A stretch of DNA of 53,144 nucleotides from a virus. Its lineage: Duplodnaviria > Caudoviricetes. The notes under the pieces were generated by a model. It was not told where the DNA came from, ran no database searches, and saw only the letters and a program-made list of their open reading frames with translations. Positions 8,933-24,496 of this stretch are shown in pieces. The translations under genes and the position numbers were made by a program. How positions within the stretch are numbered: the stretch's first letter is position 1; every line of letters starts with the position of its first letter. The stretch is from the IMG/VR virus record IMGVR_UViG_3300019875_000001, positions 1 to 53,144 of that record; one strand, given 5' to 3'.

Positions 8933-10756
8933 CTATCGTTTAGCCCCGGCTAATGGACTTCCAGAAGGCTTAGGAGTCACCTTGGGAACAGGTTTAGATG
9001 CTGTTTTCATTGCAGCATCCGCAGATTTGAGAGCCGCATCGCCAATATCCGCCTTGCCCTGAGCCACTAAATGCTCGTCATCAACTCTGTCGGCAGGATC
9101 AGCAAAGCCCTGCAATACAGGCTCAGGATACATCAAATCGGTGATTCTCTCCGCATTCTCTTGTCCGAGGGCCTCAAGCAAAAGCTGGCAAACTACCTTC
9201 CTATCAGGGAAGATACCCTCTGCTGGACTGCCTCCCATGGTAACGGCCTGAACCAGAGAGCGAACTCGATCAGTGACATCCCGCTCTAGGATGTTGGGGA
9301 ACTCGATCTCCACATTTGTTGTCTCTTCCCCAGGCGGAATAACCGTAATAATTACAGTTCCGTCGAACTCATCGCGGGACTTTTCCACCCTAAAGCCAGC
9401 CTTGTTCAGCTTACCTCCTGGTGCCTCAGCACTCCATTCAATCAGCCGCGTGCAGAACGCCTGGATGACGCCCGCCCATAGATCTTGGCGAGAAACCATC
9501 TTAAGCTCAGTAGGGCGGTCAAGAGTGGTGGATGTGGCAAAGTTACCGATATCAGAGTCACCGAGGAAGTGTTCAGGCGTATCTGATCCTGCAGCGACCA
9601 TTGACCGTAAGGCCCTCGCCTCATCAGGCCCTGTGGTAGATCCCGCTGTCTTAATCGGCTGGACATTAGCAGCACCTGACATTAACGCCCAACTTGCTGT
9701 ATTCGTGGGCGGATTGGTATCCCTCAACTGGCCATTATTCACGCCAGTCTTAAGCTTGTTCTTGCTGGCAGCTACGCCAGCTTTACCCGGTAATCCAGAG
9801 ATTTGATAGGCCAGCCGCGCATATGCGGCCAGAATGGTGGCGAAGTTCTCCAAGATGCGCTTATACCCTGTAGCCCAGTTCAGAGCTGAGAATAGCTCAG
9901 GAAGGCCAAAACGCATCATATCCAGCCCACCAGTTCTCAAATGGTAGGTACAGGTGGTCCAGTCAATCCGTGTGCCGTCTGGTGCCTTATTCGGGCGAGT
10001 AGTGGGGTAGTAATCCCAATCAGGGTAGAGAGTATTCTGCTTTACTACATCCGTGGCTATTTCATCCTGGAGTATGAAGCCTGAAGACATGGCTCCAATG
10101 TTAGAAGTGCGGGCATAGAAGCGGGGCTCTTTCGCGTCTTCGGGGTTGTAAACGATCCCCTGTATCTGATCGAACGGTAGGAGACGGACACGAGCGGCCC
10201 CGTTTTGCTTGTTGCGGTAAAAGACAAAGAACTGGTTACCGTCAACCCTCTGTTGTCTTTCCCTTTCTGGCCAAGCGTCCCCAATAACACGCTGATTCTT
10301 GCGATTCTTAAAGAAGTCATCGAGAACCTCCTGAACTACCCCATTCTCAGCCGTGATCTTGACGCCACGGCCCCAGACATATAACTCCTGTACCGTGACT
10401 ACCCTCTTGATAAGAGGGTTGATCAGATACATCACGCGGGAGAGACTAACGATTCTGCGCAGTGTAGTGCGGTTAAAGTTGAATGTGGTGCTGGGATCAC
10501 CACCAATCCAGCCCCTATCCTCACTGGCAAAGGATGCTTCAAGCTCAGAGAAGGCGCTTTCAAAGACTTGGGTGAACTGCTTGGTCAGGCCATCCTGAGA
10601 GCCAATCTCAGGCATACCGGCACCACTTGAACCCCCGCCGCCCTGGATTAGAGCCTCCTCAGCCAGATCAGCCGTCGCCCGCATGTGATTAGCGCCAAGA
10701 GAGGCACCAGTTAGCCCGCCCACGAGCCTATCGCGCAATCCACTGAAAAATCGCAT
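8933..10756 (-). CDS. Portal protein
   Basis: 607 aa just downstream of TerL; NPLIKR, DGNQF, RFGLPE, P.HFLGD...NFAT. Confidence 0.8.
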   Translation of the reverse strand: MRFFSGLRDRLVGGLTGASLGANHMRATADLAEEALIQGGGGSSGAGMPEIGSQDGLTKQFTQVFESAFSELEASFASEDRGWIGGDPSTTFNFNRTTLRRIVSLSRVMYLINPLIKRVVTVQELYVWGRGVKITAENGVVQEVLDDFFKNRKNQRVIGDAWPERERQQRVDGNQFFVFYRNKQNGAARVRLLPFDQIQGIVYNPEDAKEPRFYARTSNIGAMSSGFILQDEIATDVVKQNTLYPDWDYYPTTRPNKAPDGTRIDWTTCTYHLRTGGLDMMRFGLPELFSALNWATGYKRILENFATILAAYARLAYQISGLPGKAGVAASKNKLKTGVNNGQLRDTNPPTNTASWALMSGAANVQPIKTAGSTTGPDEARALRSMVAAGSDTPEHFLGDSDIGNFATSTTLDRPTELKMVSRQDLWAGVIQAFCTRLIEWSAEAPGGKLNKAGFRVEKSRDEFDGTVIITVIPPGEETTNVEIEFPNILERDVTDRVRSLVQAVTMGGSPAEGIFPDRKVVCQLLLEALGQENAERITDLMYPEPVLQGFADPADRVDDEHLVAQGKADIGDAALKSADAAMKTASKPVPKVTPKPSGSPLAGAKR

Positions 10757-17974: not shown

Positions 17975-18259
17975 ATGCAGACAATCGAATTAGAGGTAGG
18001 TTACGGACATAAGAGCAAACATGAGCTTAAACAGTTCCGCAACCCTGTAGGCTTAGCCGAGATGATACGCCACTGTGATAGTAACTCTCACATCTGGTTT
18101 AAGTCTCTTGACGGCACAGCTAGGAGGGCCAAAGTGAACGGCAAGGTTCGCACGTGGAAGAGAGATCCAGGGCGAATAGAGATACCAGTCAAGTACGGAA
18201 TGTATGAGTACGGCGTATTCAGTGCTTCAGATATTGACCGTATCTTGATCGAGATTTAG
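17975..18259 (+). CDS. Hypothetical early protein
   Basis: GGAGG SD; ORF. Confidence 0.65.
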   Translation: MQTIELEVGYGHKSKHELKQFRNPVGLAEMIRHCDSNSHIWFKSLDGTARRAKVNGKVRTWKRDPGRIEIPVKYGMYEYGVFSASDIDRILIEI

Positions 18260-18307
18260 TTAACTACTAGGCTGGACTGAGAAGTCCAGCCAATGGAGGA
18301 TAACTTA

Positions 18308-18758: not shown

Positions 18759-19070
18759 ATGAATTTACCAAGTGTGAAGACGTTGGAGCCTATCACCCGA
18801 GATAGGGAAGCCGCTAAGAAAGTGCGGCGATTGTTGGAGGGTGTACGGCTAGGTCCAGTAACTACAGCCTTGATGAGGATTGATCAGGAAGACTTGATAC
18901 CACGGGGTTATGGGGTTGAGACTATACGCCGAGGTGAGGGCAAGAAGTCGCCGGGGATTCACTATATCAATCGGGGTGATCCGTATGTCTCAACTCTGAT
19001 GTATATCGAAGGGCTAGGGTTTAGGGTAGGGTGCTGGGGTGACATTGTGGAGCGGGGCAAGTACAAGTAA
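18759..19070 (+). CDS. Hypothetical early protein
   Basis: GAGGT SD; YINRGDPYVSTL...WGDIVE. Confidence 0.65.
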   Translation: MNLPSVKTLEPITRDREAAKKVRRLLEGVRLGPVTTALMRIDQEDLIPRGYGVETIRRGEGKKSPGIHYINRGDPYVSTLMYIEGLGFRVGCWGDIVERGKYK

Positions 19071-19106
19071 CTCACTAGGCTACGGTGAAAGCGTAGCCAA
19101 TGGGAG

Positions 19107-19295
19107 ATGCTTATGACTTTAGATGACGCAGTATGTGAGGCTCACAAAATTGCCAATAGCAGTGGGGTTAGTGTCCTGGTGTACAAGGCTACCCACAATG
19201 ATTTGGGTGAGTATGGCGTAGCCTACACTTTGCCCATGTGGGGTGAGAGGGTTGGAGACAGGATTTATCCTGGTGGAGATACTCATGAGCTTTGA
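19107..19295 (+). CDS. Hypothetical early protein
   Basis: ORF after a hairpin element. Confidence 0.5.
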   Translation: MLMTLDDAVCEAHKIANSSGVSVLVYKATHNDLGEYGVAYTLPMWGERVGDRIYPGGDTHEL

Positions 19296-19515
19296 CAAGA
19301 TTGCAGCGGTTTACGTGTGGTGCTCTGATAATCACAGTGGCCAGTGGTCACGAGGTTACCGGATCATGTCACGCATAGCCAAGATGAGAATCAATCTCAC
19401 TGATAATGCCTGGGAGGCTATACAGTGCGGCACAGGCCGAGGTAAAGATGAATGGGCTGAAGCTAGAGAGATGTATCTCAGGTTGAGTCTAATGAAGTTG
19501 AGACGGCCAGTTTAA
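19285..19515 (+). CDS. Hypothetical early protein
   Basis: GGAG SD; HSGQWSRGY motif. Confidence 0.55.
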   Translation: MSFDKIAAVYVWCSDNHSGQWSRGYRIMSRIAKMRINLTDNAWEAIQCGTGRGKDEWAEAREMYLRLSLMKLRRPV

Positions 19516-19691
19516 TCACTAGGCTAGGCTTGCGAGTCTAGCCAATGAGGTGAAACTATGGACAGGATAACGGTGATTATGACTGGTGACCCTCCCCCAG
19601 GCGAGTATGAAGAGTGGAAGAATGGGCAGTGGGTAGCCTGCAAGTAATCCGCTAGAAAGCGTAATTATTACGCTTTCGCTGAGGTTTGCTT

Positions 19692-19850: not shown

Positions 19851-20069
19851 ATGGTATACAGCTATATCATTTCCTATTCAAAGGGCACAGGTTTTGCCTT
19901 TGACGGTATACAGCTGGATAGGTACGTAACCCAGCTGCTAGTAACTGGGATTCCAGCTGAGGAGATAGAGATCAAGGTAAATACAGCAAACACATCTAGA
20001 AAGTAACTCACTAGGTCTAGCCGTGAGGTTAGACCAATGGGGGCTACTGCCCACCAGGAGATTAAACGT

Positions 20070-20323: not shown

Positions 20324-20569
20324 ATGGAGGACTTAGAGAAGCAACTCAAGGCATCTCTGGGTAAGCTGCTGGCTCCTCTCCGTAAAGAGCATGATAAGGC
20401 TGTGAGGCTACATGCTGAGCATAAGCTCAAGGCTGAACAGTATTACGCCCAGTCAAGATCCATCGGGGCTAAGATCCGGGAGATTGAAAAGGCTGTAGGT
20501 ATCAAGACTTGGACTCAGCGTAAGATGGCTAAATTTGAGGAGCGGAGCGACGTTACCCCGAAGGGGTGA
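20324..20569 (+). CDS. Hypothetical coiled-coil protein
   Basis: AGGAG SD; coupled to the upstream gene. Confidence 0.55.
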   Translation: MEDLEKQLKASLGKLLAPLRKEHDKAVRLHAEHKLKAEQYYAQSRSIGAKIREIEKAVGIKTWTQRKMAKFEERSDVTPKG

Positions 20570-20657
20570 CGGAGCGGGTCCAGAGTCACAGGCTAGAGGG
20601 TGCTGAGAAGTGCCCTCAATGACTGTAATTATTACGGTCAGAACGAATGGAGAGTGT

Positions 20658-21839
20658 ATGAATAAACGACAGACGGCACGAGTAAACCTTGTGACGGCCA
20701 GCAGAGAATGGGCTTCACGCCCAGCAGACCAGCGATTCTGGACCCTGAGAGAGTTATTCGACAGGTCCAAGAAGTATGCAGAGGAGAGCTATATCCACAA
20801 GGTAGAGCTATCCGGTACCACTGCTGTAGCTCAAGGTGGTGATCTGGTCCTAGACATTGGGACATCAGATCCCGCGACATTCCAGCATTACAGCTTCGGA
20901 CAGCTTTGCAACATTGCCGGGGCTCCTGCTGGATATCTGCGAGGGTTACCAGCTGGATTGGCTGCTGAGAATCTCAATCACGGCCTATCCCACACTGACG
21001 GCGAACAGGTTCTCATGCTTCACAAGAATGGGGATCATGTGCTGAGGTGTGTAACCTCTAACGAGTACAGCCGAATCTGGAACTATGAAGTTGCAGAGAT
21101 GGCATTGGCTCTTGAGGAGGGTGAAGGCTGGATGACACCGCCAGCAAGACCCTGTGGCATCCAGGGGATTCCATCTCGCCGCGCAACCGCTGATGATGTA
21201 CTCCGCAAGAGTGCTCATCCAACTCTGGGTATCGAGATTGGTGATGAGATCTCACCGGCTGGGCTGTACGCTTCGGATCATGATTGCTTTATCTTCCAAG
21301 TCAATGAGGATCACCCGATTGACGCGGGAGGTGGAGAGATGCTCTACCGTGGCGTGTTTTGGAAGAACTCTGAGGTTGGTGATGCGCGATTCACTGGGAC
21401 TATGTTCCTCTATGACACGATATGCGGTAATCATATCGTCTGGGGGGCTAAGATCATTGCAGAGATCAGCATACCTCACCGGGGCAATGCTAAAGAGATC
21501 TTCCGTGAGGCCATGGCGATAGCAACTCATAACGCTTTAGCACCGGCAAGTGAGGATGAGAATCGTATTCAAAAGGCCAAGATGTATGAGATCGGCCCAG
21601 GTCAGCCTGAAGTAATCAAGGCTGTGTTTACCAAATTCTCCGGTTACATCAGCAAGCGTGAGTGTGAAGACGCTTACGTCATGGCCACTCGCCACGCTGA
21701 GGATCACAACACTGAGCCCAACACGGCATGGGGTTATGCCTCTGGGATCACTCGCTTATCACAGGGTCAGCACGCGGACAGCAGAGATAGGCTGGACCGT
21801 GTAGCTGGTCGGGTTTTGGAGATGGCTCTAGTTCGCTGA
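20658..21839 (+). CDS. DUF932-family protein
   Basis: W.SRP.D.RF..L, SFGQLC..AGAP.GY, LYASD.D.FIF.V, RG.F..NSEVG, C.NHIVWG. Confidence 0.8.
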   Translation: MNKRQTARVNLVTASREWASRPADQRFWTLRELFDRSKKYAEESYIHKVELSGTTAVAQGGDLVLDIGTSDPATFQHYSFGQLCNIAGAPAGYLRGLPAGLAAENLNHGLSHTDGEQVLMLHKNGDHVLRCVTSNEYSRIWNYEVAEMALALEEGEGWMTPPARPCGIQGIPSRRATADDVLRKSAHPTLGIEIGDEISPAGLYASDHDCFIFQVNEDHPIDAGGGEMLYRGVFWKNSEVGDARFTGTMFLYDTICGNHIVWGAKIIAEISIPHRGNAKEIFREAMAIATHNALAPASEDENRIQKAKMYEIGPGQPEVIKAVFTKFSGYISKRECEDAYVMATRHAEDHNTEPNTAWGYASGITRLSQGQHADSRDRLDRVAGRVLEMALVR

Positions 21840-21894
21840 GCCACTTCATCAGGGCATCCTGGGGAGGGTGTCCGAATGGAGTAAGGAGGTAGTC

Positions 21895-22092
21895 ATGCGA
21901 GATAAAGAGAATAGTGTTCCTTTGAGTGCGGCTGAGTTCATCAAAGTGATAGATGAGCTTACTCTACCTGGAGCGTATCCCAAGGTGCGAGAGATTGCCA
22001 CGGTGTTACGGACTGCTAAAGACGGCAGACTAACCCAGAATGCAGTTTACAAAAAGCTGGGCCTCATTACAGGGGAGAGAAAAAAGCCGTGA
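21895..22092 (+). CDS. Stand-alone paralog of the ParB-like protein C-terminal domain
   Basis: AAGGAGGT SD; 19/56 ungapped identities to the C-terminus of 23195..24496. Confidence 0.75.
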   Translation: MRDKENSVPLSAAEFIKVIDELTLPGAYPKVREIATVLRTAKDGRLTQNAVYKKLGLITGERKKP

Positions 22093-22261
22093 TCAAGGGG
22101 TGCCCTAATGGAGGAAGCATGGGATTTACAGACCTAGTGAGGAATCAGGTTATCCCTGCTGTGAGAAACCTGTACCTCAGATCTATAGCAGAGAGTAACC
22201 CAAAACAGGCACGTAGACATGGGGATCTATACAGTGCTCTGCTGAAATGGCTGGAGGATAG

Positions 22262-22438
22262 ATGATCAAGGTAGCTGGATTGCTGTATTTGACTGGGTTT
22301 ATCACCCTGTTGATACCCAGCTTATTCAACTGGCTCAACGAGTCTCACCCGCTCAATCTGCTGGTGTTTTGGTTGGTGGTGGTGATACTTGTTATCGCCA
22401 CAGTCATGATCATGTTAGTGGGGAGGCCAAGACGATGA
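22262..22438 (+). CDS. Small two-helix membrane protein
   Basis: GGAGG SD; two hydrophobic stretches. Confidence 0.45.
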   Translation: MIKVAGLLYLTGFITLLIPSLFNWLNESHPLNLLVFWLVVVILVIATVMIMLVGRPRR

Positions 22439-22599
22439 AGTGCAAGTGTGGGCATACGCTCGGGGATCATATCATTGAGGACGACTATTCGGCATGTGTG
22501 GGTGACATACCTAACGGTGCCTTGTACGTCACATCCTATACCGCAACCTGTGACTGTAAGCGATTCGCGCTAAAGGAAGAGCCTGTATTAGTTCAGTGA
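22435..22599 (+). CDS. Small Cys/His protein
   Basis: ATGA overlap; CKCGH...H...C...CDCKRF. Confidence 0.5.
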   Translation: MKCKCGHTLGDHIIEDDYSACVGDIPNGALYVTSYTATCDCKRFALKEEPVLVQ

Positions 22600-22917: not shown

Positions 22918-23052
22918 ATGAAGTTCTTGGAATCATACGCAAATACACTCTCTAGGCTGTGGTGCCGCATGTTTCACCGGCATATCACAAGAGCGGTCAA
23001 CGGGCACTACACTTGCTTGTCCTGCTTCAGGCGCTATCCCTGCAACTTCTGA
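22918..23052 (+). CDS. Small Cys/His protein
   Basis: GGAG SD; LWCRMFH.HI...VNGHYTCLSCFRRY. Confidence 0.5.
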   Translation: MKFLESYANTLSRLWCRMFHRHITRAVNGHYTCLSCFRRYPCNF

Positions 23053-23118
23053 CATTCAGACACAGGCGTAATAATTACACTTTTTGCTAAAGTGTTGATA
23101 ACGCTCTGTCGATTTCTG

Positions 23119-23147
23119 TTGACTCCAGGTCACCATGCGGCTAGACT
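23119..23147 (+). promoter_or_regulatory. Sigma70-like promoter of the ParB-like gene
   Basis: TTGACT-17 nt-TAGACT. Confidence 0.65.
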
Positions 23148-23194
23148 GGTTTCAACGGCAACAAACTAGCCGATCAAAGAGAGGAAAAAAGAGA

Positions 23195-24496
23195 ATGACA
23201 CCTGGATTGAACGATACGATCATGCTTACCCCAGCTAACCTGCTGGTCACCAAGAATACCCGCTTCGGGCTGTTGCCCGTGAAGGTGAAAGATCTGGCAG
23301 AACAGATCAAAGACGCCGGGCAGGTTAACACCTACCTGACGGTTGAAGAACTGGCAGAGCCGGGTCCTAGTGGAGAGACTCACTGGTTACGCGAGGGCCA
23401 TTACCGTAAGGCAGCTGTCGAACTGCTGGCCAAAGAAGGGTTGGAGATTCCTCTACCCTGCACGGTCGTGGAACCTCTGGAGGGTGTAAGCCGCACCAAG
23501 CACCAGATCTCGGAGAACTGGCACCGCACCGATTTGACGCCCATGGACATGGCCGTTGCAATCGATGAACTGCTCCACCCTGTGGACGGTAGCGAGGGCA
23601 TGAAGAAAAAGCGGGTGTGCGAACTCTTCTCCCGCGCTGGTGGTCGTAAGGGTCTGGCCATGGCCCCGTTGAGTAACTCAATGCTCAACATCTACCTCAG
23701 CTTCCTCCTGTTCCCCAAAAAGATTCAGCAACTCATCCACGAGGGCAAGATCGGGGTCCTCAAGGCTCACTTCCTCAGCAAGAAGGACAAGAGCGAATGG
23801 GATGTGGAACTGAAAAAGGCAGAGGATGCGCGTGAGGCTGAGATCAAGCAGTTTGAGGACTTGGAAGCTTCCTTTGTCGCCGACGAGTTGAAGGCGGTAG
23901 AGGACGACAAGAAAGCCAAAGAAGCCGCTGAGGCTCTCATCAATGCGGAGAAGATTGCAGCTGACGCTAAGGCCACTGCCGCCGACAAGCTGAATGCTGC
24001 CGCTGATGCCCTTAAAGCTGCTGGTGCCGTACCCGCCGCTGACAAGGAAAAGAAGAAAGTGGCTCAGGAGCAGTTCAAGGCTCGTGAAGCTGAGGCCAAG
24101 CAGGCTGAGAAGGAAGCCACTGAGAAGCAAGCCGCTGCCGACAAGCTCAAGCAGAAAGCAGAGAAGAACTTGCTGCTGGCTAAAGAGCGGGCTGAGAAGC
24201 TGGACAAGGCTCGCAAGGATGCCCAGGCCAAGCTTGCTGGTAAGAAGCTGGATATCGGCGGGGCTGAACCCTCTGCCCCTGGTGATGGTAAGGTCAAGCT
24301 CAAGGGGCCTGAGATCATCAAGCTTGCGGAACAGATGGCTCTTGCCGGGTCCTTCCCCAAGGTCGAAAAGATCTTCAAGGCCTTCCTCCGCTGCATTAAC
24401 TCGGAGATCACTGATGCTCAACTCACCAGCGAATGCGGTTGGATCACGGGAGAGCGTAAGGACCGCCCGAAGCACCTTCCTAAAGAAGTCAAATAG
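23195..24496 (+). CDS. ParB/Srx-family protein with HTH region, long K/A/E coiled coil and C-terminal domain
   Basis: LAEQIKDAGQV..L.V, EGHYRKAA (GxxR-like), SENWHRTDLTPMD, PKKIQQLIHEGKI. Confidence 0.8.
   Translation: MTPGLNDTIMLTPANLLVTKNTRFGLLPVKVKDLAEQIKDAGQVNTYLTVEELAEPGPSGETHWLREGHYRKAAVELLAKEGLEIPLPCTVVEPLEGVSRTKHQISENWHRTDLTPMDMAVAIDELLHPVDGSEGMKKKRVCELFSRAGGRKGLAMAPLSNSMLNIYLSFLLFPKKIQQLIHEGKIGVLKAHFLSKKDKSEWDVELKKAEDAREAEIKQFEDLEASFVADELKAVEDDKKAKEAAEALINAEKIAADAKATAADKLNAAADALKAAGAVPAADKEKKKVAQEQFKAREAEAKQAEKEATEKQAAADKLKQKAEKNLLLAKERAEKLDKARKDAQAKLAGKKLDIGGAEPSAPGDGKVKLKGPEIIKLAEQMALAGSFPKVEKIFKAFLRCINSEITDAQLTSECGWITGERKDRPKHLPKEVK

What the first reader, a model, noticed from the sequence alone, without database searches (positions are those of the whole stretch)
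21895..22092. Free-standing copy of the ParB-like C-terminal domain: possible dominant-negative switch
Seen: VPLSAAEFIKVIDELTLPGAYPKVREIATVLRTAKDGRLTQNAVYKKLGLITGERK aligns without gaps to VKLKGPEIIKLAEQMALAGSFPKVEKIFKAFLRCINSEITDAQLTSECGWITGERK (about 24293-24460), 19/56 identical. It has a strong SD and sits in the early operon, upstream of the ParB gene's own promoter. Known: ParB C-domains mediate dimerisation, and truncated mimics such as SinI for SinR act as antagonists. Inference: a built-in anti-clamp or anti-repressor.
Basis: partly seen in the sequence, partly recalled or inferred. Interest (0 to 1): 0.75.

Follow-up and report, generated by a model that had tools for sequence, protein, structure and literature searches.

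The report
Stand-alone copy of ParB-like C-domain
A soil phage has a small separate gene that copies only the last, three-helix domain of its own ParB-like DNA-binding protein; it may tune or block that protein, but this is untested and few related phages have such a gene.

Summary
ORF 21895-22092 (65 aa, P0001) is a significant paralogue of the last ~60 residues of the 453-aa ParB-like protein at 23135/23195-24496: BLASTP 19/59 identical, E 1e-9, and 0 of 5000 shuffles reach its score.

The shared module is a conserved three-helix domain (LPGxxPKV ... ITGE[RK]K). It ends a phage family of ~410-460-aa ParB-like proteins with a long helical arm (59 of 81 hits). It has no Pfam family and no significant PDB or BFVD fold match. 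It was not shown to be the canonical ParB dimerisation domain.

P0001 looks like a real gene. It has a strong SD, the operon's usual intercistronic hairpin and a GTGA overlap with the next ORF.

The phage has no ParA. The extra copy is accessory: near-identical strains have it, but the closest distinct relative (58% ParB identity) lacks it. Only 1 of 11 other family-bearing records has one, and there it again lies just upstream of the ParB-like gene.

The dominant-negative idea remains plausible but unproven. Heterodimer prediction gave weak support only (0.39; best control 0.00). dN/dS and phylogeny were uninformative. No RNA cover of the ORF was found.

Verdict: a real, moderately interesting new variant with an inferred mechanism.

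The parts
21852..21873 (+). Intercistronic RNA hairpin (9-bp stem, 4-nt loop) between the DUF932-like gene's stop (21839) and the P0001 SD. It is the same class of hairpin that precedes other + strand genes of this block.
Evidence: window 21838-21897 folds at -25.1 kcal/mol, z -3.51, and 0 of 200 shuffles fold as well. Five other gene junctions fold likewise (z -3.25 to -5.71).
21883..21889 (+). Shine-Dalgarno AAGGAGG, 5 nt upstream of the ATG
   Evidence: Read directly.
21895..22092 (+). P0001: 65-aa free-standing copy of the three-helix C-domain (helices 12-22, 29-42, 48-59). It keeps LPGAYPKV and ITGERK.
   Evidence: AF2 with a 74-row alignment gave pLDDT 90.1. The exact protein was seen on 8 contigs and a T36K variant on 4.
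22089..22265 (+). Downstream small ORF of unknown function: 58 aa from the GTG that overlaps the P0001 stop as GTGA, or 48 aa from ATG 22119 with its own GGAGGA. With P0001 it forms the segment that relative L003 lacks.
   Evidence: Against strain L005 it shows 3 synonymous and 0 non-synonymous changes; L005's product is one residue longer in frame (MGFTEDLV against MGFTDLV). No tblastn hit in L003. No Pfam or PHROG family.
23058..23198 (+). Conserved non-coding region upstream of the ParB-like gene. It contains palindrome GTAATAATTAC (23068-23078) and a promoter-like match TTGACT-17-TAGACT (23119-23147).
   Evidence: 91.7% identity to L003 over 144 columns, against 71.1% for 20501-21857. One search gives the palindrome. 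One search gives the promoter-like site, 9 of 12; such sites are not enriched over shuffles (11 found, 11.0 expected).
23195..24496 (+). ParB-like protein, most likely starting at M21 (ATG 23195); the longest ORF starts at 23135. It has a ParB N-domain with GHYR in place of GERR and with ENWHR, an HTH, two long helices (about 219-297 and 304-369 in P0002 numbering), then the C-domain.
   Evidence: PHROG 4715, E 1.6e-8. The family profile matches Spo0J 6sdk at 5.3e-13, Noc, and KorB 8qa8 at 9.5e-9. Pfam ParB_N in 5 of 28 and HTH_ParB in 4 of 28 family members, none in P0002 itself. The helices come from a low-confidence single-sequence model, pLDDT 51.6. The Atlas record starts at residue 21.
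24287..24460 (+). The fused C-domain of the ParB-like protein, the paralogue of P0001
   Evidence: domain HMM E 6.5e-25.

Best explanation
P0001 is a real, translated accessory gene of a soil phage. It encodes nothing but a copy of the conserved three-helix C-terminal module of the phage's own orphan ParB-like protein. That protein has a ParB N-domain, an HTH, a long helical arm and the C-module, and the genome has no ParA.

The most likely mode of action is homotypic. The free module pairs with, or caps, the C-module of the full-length protein, or occupies the surface that module uses. Whatever C-module-dependent assembly the ParB-like protein needs (closing a dimer or clamp, or bridging) would then be limited or switched off when the small protein accumulates.

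Shown: homology, fold class, gene-like signals, co-occurrence with the target, and recurrence of the same arrangement in one distant relative.

Inferred: that the C-module self-associates, that P0001 binds it, and that the effect is negative.
For: Homology and fold.
- BLASTP E 1e-9; 0 of 5000 shuffles reach the score.
- P0001 keeps all four positions that are at least 90% conserved within the domain in the 74-row alignment (L10, V31, G60, E61) although it is only 34% identical to the resident copy. This argues for lasting constraint on the fold.
- The model is confident: pLDDT 90.1, three helices. They are in register with helices 391-403, 407-421 and 427-437 of P0002.

Gene-like signals.
- A clean domain-sized gene: the ATG lies 7 residues before the first conserved VPL, with AAGGAGG 5 nt upstream.
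- The operon-type hairpin precedes it.
- A GTGA overlap joins it to the next ORF.

Occurrence.
- Identical DNA lies in contigs of two further soil samples (X5 record 8 and X6 records 15-16, 0 other letters).
- The sister strain L005 has it.
- A second, independent case exists. Record G009 (L061) has an 89-aa free copy (domain HMM E 8e-12; A6 profile 1.2e-24) ending about 130 nt upstream of its own ParB-like ORF.

Complex prediction.
- P0001 against P0002 residues 378-453: weak support, score 0.39, best of 3 controls 0.00.
- The mark was reached by 58 of 80 solved complexes and 2 of 110 mismatched pairs.
- At 0.60 or under it was reached by only 7 of those 80 solved complexes and by both mismatches that passed.
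- The runs agree in at least 87% of contacts, and the partner pLDDT is at least 67.

Precedent. The engineered free CTD of B. subtilis ParB inhibits and reverses ParB-DNA condensation in vitro and was tested in vivo as a dominant negative (PMC5731820, passages read).
Against: - The domain is not the canonical ParB CTD. No PDB chain reaches E <= 0.001 by Foldseek (best 0.76) and none reaches significance in BFVD (best 0.38). Profile matches to PDB are designed helical repeats only. Self-association is therefore assumed, not known.
- The complex score is in the range the tool calls 'more often wrong than right unless the guess was likely beforehand'. Paralogues may be laid together by likeness alone.
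- The long helical arm could itself be the dimerisation element, which would leave the C-module for another partner.
- The pair is not conserved. It is absent from G001 (L003; 58% ParB identity, 77% complete) and from 9 further records plus one MAG contig. In all, 10 of 11 other records have a single, fused copy.
- Between the two strains P0001 differs by 1 synonymous and 1 non-synonymous change, so selection cannot be measured.
- No expression evidence was obtained.
Confidence: 0.4

Rival explanations
1. Third-party ligand. The C-module is an effector or recruitment domain that binds another phage or host factor, or nucleic acid. The free copy then acts on that ligand independently of the ParB-like protein. 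It could titrate the ligand, or deliver the same output without DNA loading, as BisDact does with BisC.
For: - In the ICEclc ParB-like protein BisD, an all-helical C-terminal domain with no known structural homologue contacts the partner BisC. Expressed alone with BisC, it is sufficient to activate promoters (PMC12409273, passages read).
- Here too the C-module is all-helical and has no known homologue.
- A small Zn-ribbon-like ORF (22918-23052) lies immediately upstream of the ParB-like gene in the window, L003, L005, L057 and L061 (5 of 12 loci examined). It is a candidate conserved partner.
- P0001 is basic: 13 K/R against 8 D/E, counted from the sequence.
Against: - No partner was identified or tested.
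- BisDact also dimerises, so this rival is not exclusive of homotypic binding.
- The weak heterodimer score points, if anywhere, to a homotypic contact.
Confidence: 0.25
2. Neutral passenger. A 3' piece of a ParB-like gene was captured by recombination in the variable region between the DUF932-like and ParB-like genes. It is still open and translatable but has no role.
For: - The segment 21857-22599 has no DNA counterpart in L003, which has a shorter, different stretch there.
- Sporadic distribution: 2 of 12 family-bearing records.
- L003 has an HNH-like ORF on the other strand in the same inter-gene region, so the region is mosaic.
- In L061 the free copy has lost the PKV and ITGE motifs, as a decaying copy might.
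Against: - The gene boundaries coincide with the domain boundary.
- It has a strong SD, the operon hairpin and translational coupling.
- At 34% identity to the resident copy, P0001 still keeps the family's conserved positions and folds confidently. A drifting fragment of that age would be expected to have lost them.
- The same position (upstream of, and on the same strand as, the ParB-like gene) recurs in L061.
Confidence: 0.2
3. Inter-phage weapon. The free module targets the ParB-like proteins of competing related phages rather than its own, as a poison subunit in co-infection.
For: Over the 56-residue core, P0001 is more like the C-modules of other family members than its resident partner: 27/56 to P0006 and P0022 and 26/56 to P0010, against 19/56 to the resident.
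Against: - The trees are unresolved: 59 columns, 7 of 80 inner branches starred.
- The AU test does not reject P0001 grouping with the resident clade (p-AU 0.82), so a foreign origin is not shown.
- There is no evidence on specificity.
Confidence: 0.08

Closest known systems
[quoted passage not shown] 2017, eLife, PMC5731820; passages read. Madariaga-Marcos et al. 2019, PMC6433461; abstract start in the listing only)
   Same: A C-terminal module of a ParB-type protein, supplied in trans without the N-domain and DNA-binding domain, interferes with the full-length protein's higher-order assembly. This is the mechanism proposed here.
   Different: That CTD is a laboratory construct of the canonical ParB CTD. 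Here the free module is encoded naturally by a separate gene. It is a different, all-helical domain with no detected similarity to solved structures, and no interference has been shown.
BisD of ICEclc: ParB-like clamp with a long linker and an all-helical C-terminal 'BisDact' domain (PMC12409273; passages read)
   Same: Both are orphan ParB-like regulators on a mobile element. Both have an N-terminal ParB part with an HTH, a long connector, and a C-terminal all-helical domain of unknown ancestry that can work when separated from the ParB part.
   Different: BisD keeps GxxR and binds CTP. The present family has GxYR. Its connector is predicted helical rather than unstructured. No BisC-like partner was identified. 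No sequence relation between the two C-domains was tested.
KorB with its clamp-locking partners KorA and TrbA on plasmid RK2 (PMC11790492, PMC13584720; abstract starts in the listing only)
   Same: A ParB-family regulator whose activity is switched by a small separately encoded protein. The KorB N-terminal and DNA-binding part matches the family profile (8qa8, E 9.5e-9).
   Different: As I recall, KorA and TrbA are not paralogues of a KorB domain. They lock the clamp rather than mimic its C-terminus.
SinI/SinR-type antagonism by a truncated paralogue
   Same: A small protein homologous to the interaction domain of a DNA-binding regulator and lacking the DNA-binding part.
   Different: Unrelated fold and family. 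The interaction here is only weakly predicted.
5mYOX-associated phage ParB activators (PMC13229309; abstract read)
   Same: Phage-encoded orphan ParB homologues used for something other than partition, in which both the N-domain and the CTD are required.
   Different: Those lack an obvious DNA-binding domain. The present family has an HTH and a long helical arm. I did not search the window for a dioxygenase.

Membership tests
ParB/Noc/KorB superfamily (for the full-length partner P0002) | [quoted passage not shown] | tested here: met
   The family profile (28 rows) matches Spo0J 6sdk at E 5.3e-13, Noc 7ol9 at 1.3e-12 and KorB 8qa8 at 9.5e-9. P0002 alone matches 6sdk at E 0.0089 and PHROG 4715 at 1.6e-8. 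P0002 has no Pfam hit at E <= 1; ParB_N is found in 5 of 28 and HTH_ParB in 4 of 28 relatives.
ParB/Noc/KorB superfamily (for P0002) | Arginine-rich GxxRxxA (GERRxRA) nucleotide-binding motif | tested here: not met
   P0002 reads EGHYRKAA. The family consensus is GxYRxAA, with G88 and R91 invariant. The second arginine of GERR is replaced by Y. That this motif defines CTP binding is recalled; BisD's GxxR is named.
ParB/Noc/KorB superfamily (for P0002) | ENxxR motif | tested here: met
   ENWHR in P0002. N128 and R131 are invariant in 28 rows, and the motif aligns to ENLQRE of Spo0J.
ParABS partition system | A ParA-type ATPase encoded with the ParB | tested here: not met
   No match to PF13614 or PF01656 in the 53-kb record (96% complete) at E <= 0.01. 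The same searches ring in 14 of 14 control genomes.
Canonical ParB C-terminal dimerisation domain | Sequence or fold similarity of the shared module to solved ParB or KorB C-terminal domains | tested here: not met
   Foldseek of the pLDDT-90 model against PDB gave 0 matches at E <= 0.001, best 0.76, and no ParB or KorB chain among the 50 rows listed. The A6 profile against PDB sequences gave only designed helical repeats and unrelated enzymes at E 0.007-10. No Pfam family for any of the 16 rows at E <= 0.05.
Unnamed C-module of the phage long-arm ParB-like family (for P0001) | Three-helix module with LPGxxPKV and ITGE[RK]K motifs, matched end to end by the domain profile | tested here: met
   Domain HMM E 6.8e-24 over positions 1-59. 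The motifs LPGAYPKV and ITGERK are present. Three helices.
Unnamed C-module of the phage long-arm ParB-like family (for P0001) | Located at the C-terminus of a ~410-460-aa ParB-like protein | tested here: not met
   P0001 is a 65-aa ORF. The open frame is 86 aa and starts right after the stop of the preceding gene. 59 of 81 hits are 411-459 aa with the module at the end.
Dominant-negative truncated paralogue (SinI-like logic) | Physical interaction with the homologous domain of the full-length protein | tested here: inconclusive
   Complex prediction gave weak support: 0.39 against a best control of 0.00. That mark was reached at 0.60 or under by 7 of 80 solved complexes and by both of the 2 (of 110) mismatched pairs that passed.
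Dominant-negative truncated paralogue (SinI-like logic) | Lacks the DNA-binding or effector part and is encoded with its target | tested here: met
   P0001 aligns only to residues 384-442 of P0002. Both genes are on the + strand, 1.1 kb apart.
Dominant-negative truncated paralogue (SinI-like logic) | Antagonises the target's activity | not testable with these tools
   Needs biochemistry or genetics.

The most novel reading that the evidence does not exclude
Phages of this group have at least twice evolved a natural 'micro-ParB': a separately encoded copy of the ParB-like protein's terminal module. It would cap or open the protein's C-terminal closure and so act as a built-in timer or off-switch. 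The target would be a genome-wide ParB-like reader of the 40-site GTAATWATTAC array, or the ParB-like proteins of rival phages. That would be the first natural counterpart of the engineered free-CTD dominant negative of Spo0J.
Probability: 0.15. Interest if true: 0.75.

Novelty: new variant of a known kind. Interest (0 to 1): 0.45.

Why it matters
ParB-family proteins are now seen as nucleotide-gated DNA clamps that plasmids, ICEs and phages reuse for gene control. Known modulators such as KorA, TrbA and BisC are unrelated small partners.

A naturally encoded, domain-only paralogue of the C-terminal module would be a new way to regulate such a protein. It would give a simple handle (one 65-aa protein) for asking what the uncharacterised C-module and long arm of this phage family do.

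The work also defines that family: orphan ParB-like proteins with GxYR, a long helical arm and an unannotated three-helix end domain, found almost only in uncultured phages.

If the small gene proves inert, the case is just another example of mosaic phage accessory DNA.

Tried and rejected
- The search for related loci with P0002, P0001 and P0006 in viral contigs found no relatives.
- The 28-row alignment A2 had no stretch conserved enough to scan with. Smaller alignments A3 and A5 worked.
- A degenerate DNA pattern for PKV-26 residues-ITGE gave 48 loci, of which only 1 (L039, the same record as L003) holds the domain by HMM. The other 47 are chance.
- The genome-contig scan with A5 gave 23 loci. 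Only L063 (a 45-kb contig binned with a Patescibacteria MAG) is a full-length family member. The other 22 match the N-domain only and have no C-module. No host can be named from this.
- The single-sequence AF2 model of P0002 was poor (pLDDT 51.6). I use it only for helix positions, and it spent one of two structure jobs.
- Foldseek against PDB and BFVD gave nothing significant. The ESM Atlas gave nothing for P0001 and only viral ParB_N look-alike clusters for P0002.
- dN/dS between the window and strain L005 rests on only 2 differences in P0001 and is uninformative. It is clear for the neighbours: DUF932-like 0.04, ParB-like 0.10.
- Origin of the copy. The FastTree and IQ-TREE quick trees on 59 columns are unresolved. 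The AU test does not reject P0001 plus the resident clade (p 0.82). The constrained tree even had the higher likelihood, so the quick free search was poor. I therefore dropped the claim that P0001 came from another phage.
- Short-protein search with the 16-row domain profile (30-139 aa; 1890 word-sharing candidates) gave 5 clusters. P0087 and P0088 look like 3' pieces of full-length genes. P0003 is the query's own cluster. P0089 is the L061 ORF. P0090 is a tandem double module. The contexts of P0006, P0058, P0081, P0068 and P0018 could not be seen, so I do not count them as free-standing.
- RNA. Two soil metatranscriptome runs hold only short exact contigs inside the ParB-like gene (23829-23979, 24040-24190, 24026-24268). 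None covers P0001. This shows neither absence of expression nor, given possible DNA carry-over, that the ParB-like gene is transcribed.
- Rows dropped. From the 81 hits I left 10 out of alignment A4. These were P0003 (self), P0025, P0034, P0037 and P0048 (long proteins with multiple or no clear stretch), and P0032, P0055, P0061, P0063 and P0070 (odd lengths or two stretches). A2 uses 27 of the full-length hits plus P0002.
- Literature. Searches returned no paper on a natural free-standing ParB-type C-domain gene or on this family. Supplements were closed and not seen. The survey PMC12704722 (passages only) may list this architecture in its datasets.

Full report
WHAT THE WINDOW IS. The window is a whole IMG/VR virus record of 53,144 bp, estimated 96% complete. 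PHROG matches show a tailed-phage layout. Terminase, portal, protease and major head genes lie on the minus strand at 5.8-12.7 kb. DNA polymerase and helicase genes lie on the minus strand at 31-43 kb. A plus-strand block of mostly small genes runs from 15.0 to 24.5 kb and holds the finding. Near-identical DNA occurs in many soil metagenome runs.

THE OBSERVATION. The ORF at 21895-22092 encodes 65 aa (P0001). AAGGAGG lies 5 nt before the ATG.
- BLASTP against the 453-aa product of 23135-24496 (P0002) aligns residues 5-63 with 384-442 without gaps, 19/59 identical, E 1e-9.
- The local score is 91. 5000 shuffles of P0001 gave mean 31.1, sd 4.7, maximum 70, and none reached 91.
- The next best of 431 open frames in the window scores 37.
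- A six-frame search of the record finds only these two places.

WHAT THE SHARED MODULE IS. A profile of the two copies, scored against 1.84 billion representative proteins, found 81 proteins at E <= 1e-3. Of these, 59 are 411-459 aa with the match at the extreme C-terminus. Aligned, these proteins share one architecture:
- an N-terminal ParB-type domain and an HTH;
- about 150 residues rich in K, A and E, predicted as two long helices. For P0002 these are 219-297 and 304-369, from a low-confidence single-sequence model;
- a compact end module with LPGS[FY]PKV and ITGE[RK]K.
The family profile matches solved Spo0J (5.3e-13), Noc and KorB (9.5e-9) over the N-domain and HTH only. Pfam finds ParB_N in 5 of 28 members and HTH_ParB in 4 of 28, and nothing in P0002 itself. 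The arginine motif GERRxRA reads GxYRxAA in the family (GHYR in P0002), while ENxxR is kept.

The phage has no ParA-type ATPase. PF13614 and PF01656 find nothing in the record, and both ring in 14 of 14 control genomes. This is an orphan ParB-like protein, not a partition system.

THE END MODULE HAS NO KNOWN RELATIVE. With a 74-row alignment, AF2 folds P0001 with pLDDT 90.1 as three helices, 12-22, 29-42 and 48-59.
- Foldseek finds nothing significant in PDB (best E 0.76) or BFVD (best 0.38).
- A 16-row profile finds only designed helical repeats in PDB sequences.
- It matches no Pfam family.
So 'ParB C-domain' is true only as 'C-terminal domain of a ParB-like protein'. The dimerising role of the canonical ParB CTD cannot be transferred to it by homology.

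IS P0001 A GENE? Several things say yes.
- Its start sits 7 residues before the first conserved residues of the module, so the gene is domain-sized.
- It has a strong SD.
- The 55 nt between the preceding DUF932-like gene and the SD fold into a 9-bp hairpin (21852-21873; -25.1 kcal/mol, z -3.5). Five other gene junctions of this block carry hairpins of the same kind (z -3.25 to -5.71).
- Its stop overlaps a GTG of the next ORF as GTGA.
- At only 34% identity to the resident copy, it keeps the positions that are at least 90% conserved in the family (L10, V31, G60, E61).
- The exact protein was called on 8 contigs and a T36K variant on 4.
- Contigs from two further soil samples cover it with no differences.
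I found no direct evidence of expression.

CONSERVATION OF THE PAIR. A sister strain, L005, is 85-97% identical in DNA and has both genes. There P0001 differs by one synonymous and one non-synonymous change, too few for dN/dS. The neighbours are clearly constrained: DUF932-like 0.04, ParB-like 0.10.

The closest distinct relative is L003 (record G001), with 58% ParB identity and 77% completeness. It keeps the DUF932-like gene, a Zn-finger ORF, a Zn-ribbon ORF and the ParB-like gene in the same order. It has no second copy of the module anywhere in its 42.5 kb. DNA homology stops at window 21857 and resumes at 22599. P0001 and the next ORFs therefore lie in a replaced, variable segment.

Nine more IMG/VR records with a family member and one contig from a MAG were searched whole with domain profiles. 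Their loci were also searched with a 74-row HMM. Only one, G009 (L061; 63.4 kb, 100% complete), has a second copy. It is an 89-aa ORF (9499-9768) ending about 130 nt before its own ParB-like ORF, on the same strand. It matches at E 8e-12 (HMM) and 1.2e-24 (A6 profile) and has lost the PKV and ITGE motifs.

Counting the window, 2 of 12 records carry a free copy, both upstream of the fused one. In the 5.8-billion-protein set, a word-limited search for 30-139-aa proteins gave 5 clusters. Only the window's own cluster and the L061 ORF are demonstrably free-standing.

ORIGIN. P0001 is nominally closer to other members' modules (27/56 to P0006 and P0022) than to its resident partner (19/56). It falls outside the resident clade in quick trees. 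With 59 columns, however, the trees are unresolved, and the AU test does not reject P0001 joining the resident clade (p 0.82). Whether it arose by duplication in place or by capture from another phage is open.

MECHANISM. The one direct test available was prediction of P0001 against residues 378-453 of P0002, each with its alignment. It gave weak support: 0.39, best of 3 controls 0.00.
- The mark was reached by 58 of 80 solved complexes and 2 of 110 mismatched pairs.
- At 0.60 or under, it was reached by only 7 of those 80 solved complexes and by both mismatches that passed.
- The runs agree in at least 87% of contacts, and the partner pLDDT is at least 67.
This raises the odds of a homotypic contact a little and no more.

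Two precedents frame the readings. First, the engineered free CTD of B. subtilis ParB blocks and reverses ParB-DNA condensation, and it was proposed to act by forming mixed dimers or capping (PMC5731820). Second, in BisD of ICEclc an all-helical C-terminal domain of unknown ancestry both dimerises and contacts the partner BisC, and it works when expressed alone with BisC (PMC12409273).

I rank the readings as follows:
- a homotypic modulator, probably negative: 0.40;
- a free effector or competitor for a third-party ligand: 0.25;
- an inert passenger: 0.20;
- an inter-phage weapon: 0.08.
The remainder is for explanations not considered.

CONTEXT THAT BEARS ON THE TARGET. The palindrome GTAATWATTAC occurs 40 times in the window at up to 1 mismatch, against 0.33 expected. 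It is also dense in L003 (20 in 21 kb) and L005, but is essentially absent from the loci of more distant family members. One copy lies in the 140-bp region before the ParB-like start. That region is 91.7% identical to L003, against 71% for the nearby coding DNA. This is compatible with the ParB-like protein reading the array and with its gene having its own control region. Neither point was tested here.

VERDICT. The antagonist interpretation is plausible, weakly supported and unproven. The feature is an accessory, lineage-specific variant rather than a conserved part of the system. Novelty: a new variant of a known kind (a domain-only paralogue as a possible modulator), set in an undescribed phage ParB-like family. 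Interest 0.45.

Noticed in passing
whole window, e.g. 14363, 17949, 20625, 22615, 23068, 24631; L003; L005: The 11-nt palindrome GTAATWATTAC occurs 40 times at up to 1 mismatch, against 0.33 expected. It often lies 12-25 nt upstream of an SD. It is equally dense in relative L003 (20 sites in 21 kb) and present in L005, but there is only 1 site in total in the loci of 9 more distant family members. It is a candidate operator, parS-like or promoter element. Earlier notes already cover it.
   Followed up: partly
window 23058-23198: The non-coding stretch just before the ParB-like start codon is 91.7% identical to L003, while the neighbouring DUF932-like gene is 71% identical. This is probably a conserved control region or leader.
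   Followed up: partly
window 22918-23052; L003 9679-9867; L005 5873-6037; L057 1218-1370; L061 9248-9478: A small Zn-ribbon-like ORF (LWCRxFH ... G.Y.C..C.R.YP) lies immediately upstream of the ParB-like gene in 5 of 12 loci examined, including distant ones. It is a possible conserved partner of the ParB-like protein.
   Followed up: partly
window 18257-18296, 19068-19110, 19513-19560, 20004-20040, 20566-20660, 21838-21897: Stable 9-bp hairpins followed by AAUG(G) sit at six gene junctions of the plus-strand block (z -3.25 to -5.71).
   Followed up: partly
protein P0090 (112 aa, contig 2596 bp): This protein carries two tandem, partial copies of the C-module. The module can therefore also duplicate in series.
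   Followed up: no
protein P0006 (184 aa, on a 28,070-bp contig): The family member most like P0001 (27/56) consists of only the second half of the helical arm plus the C-module, on a long contig. It may be another N-terminally truncated natural form. Its context could not be fetched.
   Followed up: partly
window 24461-24493 and relatives: A C-terminal tail (E/K)RK(D/E/A)RP(K/A)H.(P/K)(K/E) follows the module in a subset of family members: P0002, P0004, P0005, P0007, P0012, P0021, P0028, P0072, P0075 and L003. It is missing from P0001. It may be a short linear motif for a partner.
   Followed up: no
window 23829-24268: Exact 151-243-nt contigs from two soil metatranscriptome libraries lie inside the helical-arm part of the ParB-like gene. 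DNA carry-over cannot be excluded.
   Followed up: no
window 20658-21839: The gene before P0001 is a DUF932-like protein (Pfam E 0.0015, below cut-off; PHROG 1362 E 3.3e-17). It is strongly constrained between strains (pN/pS 0.04).
   Followed up: no
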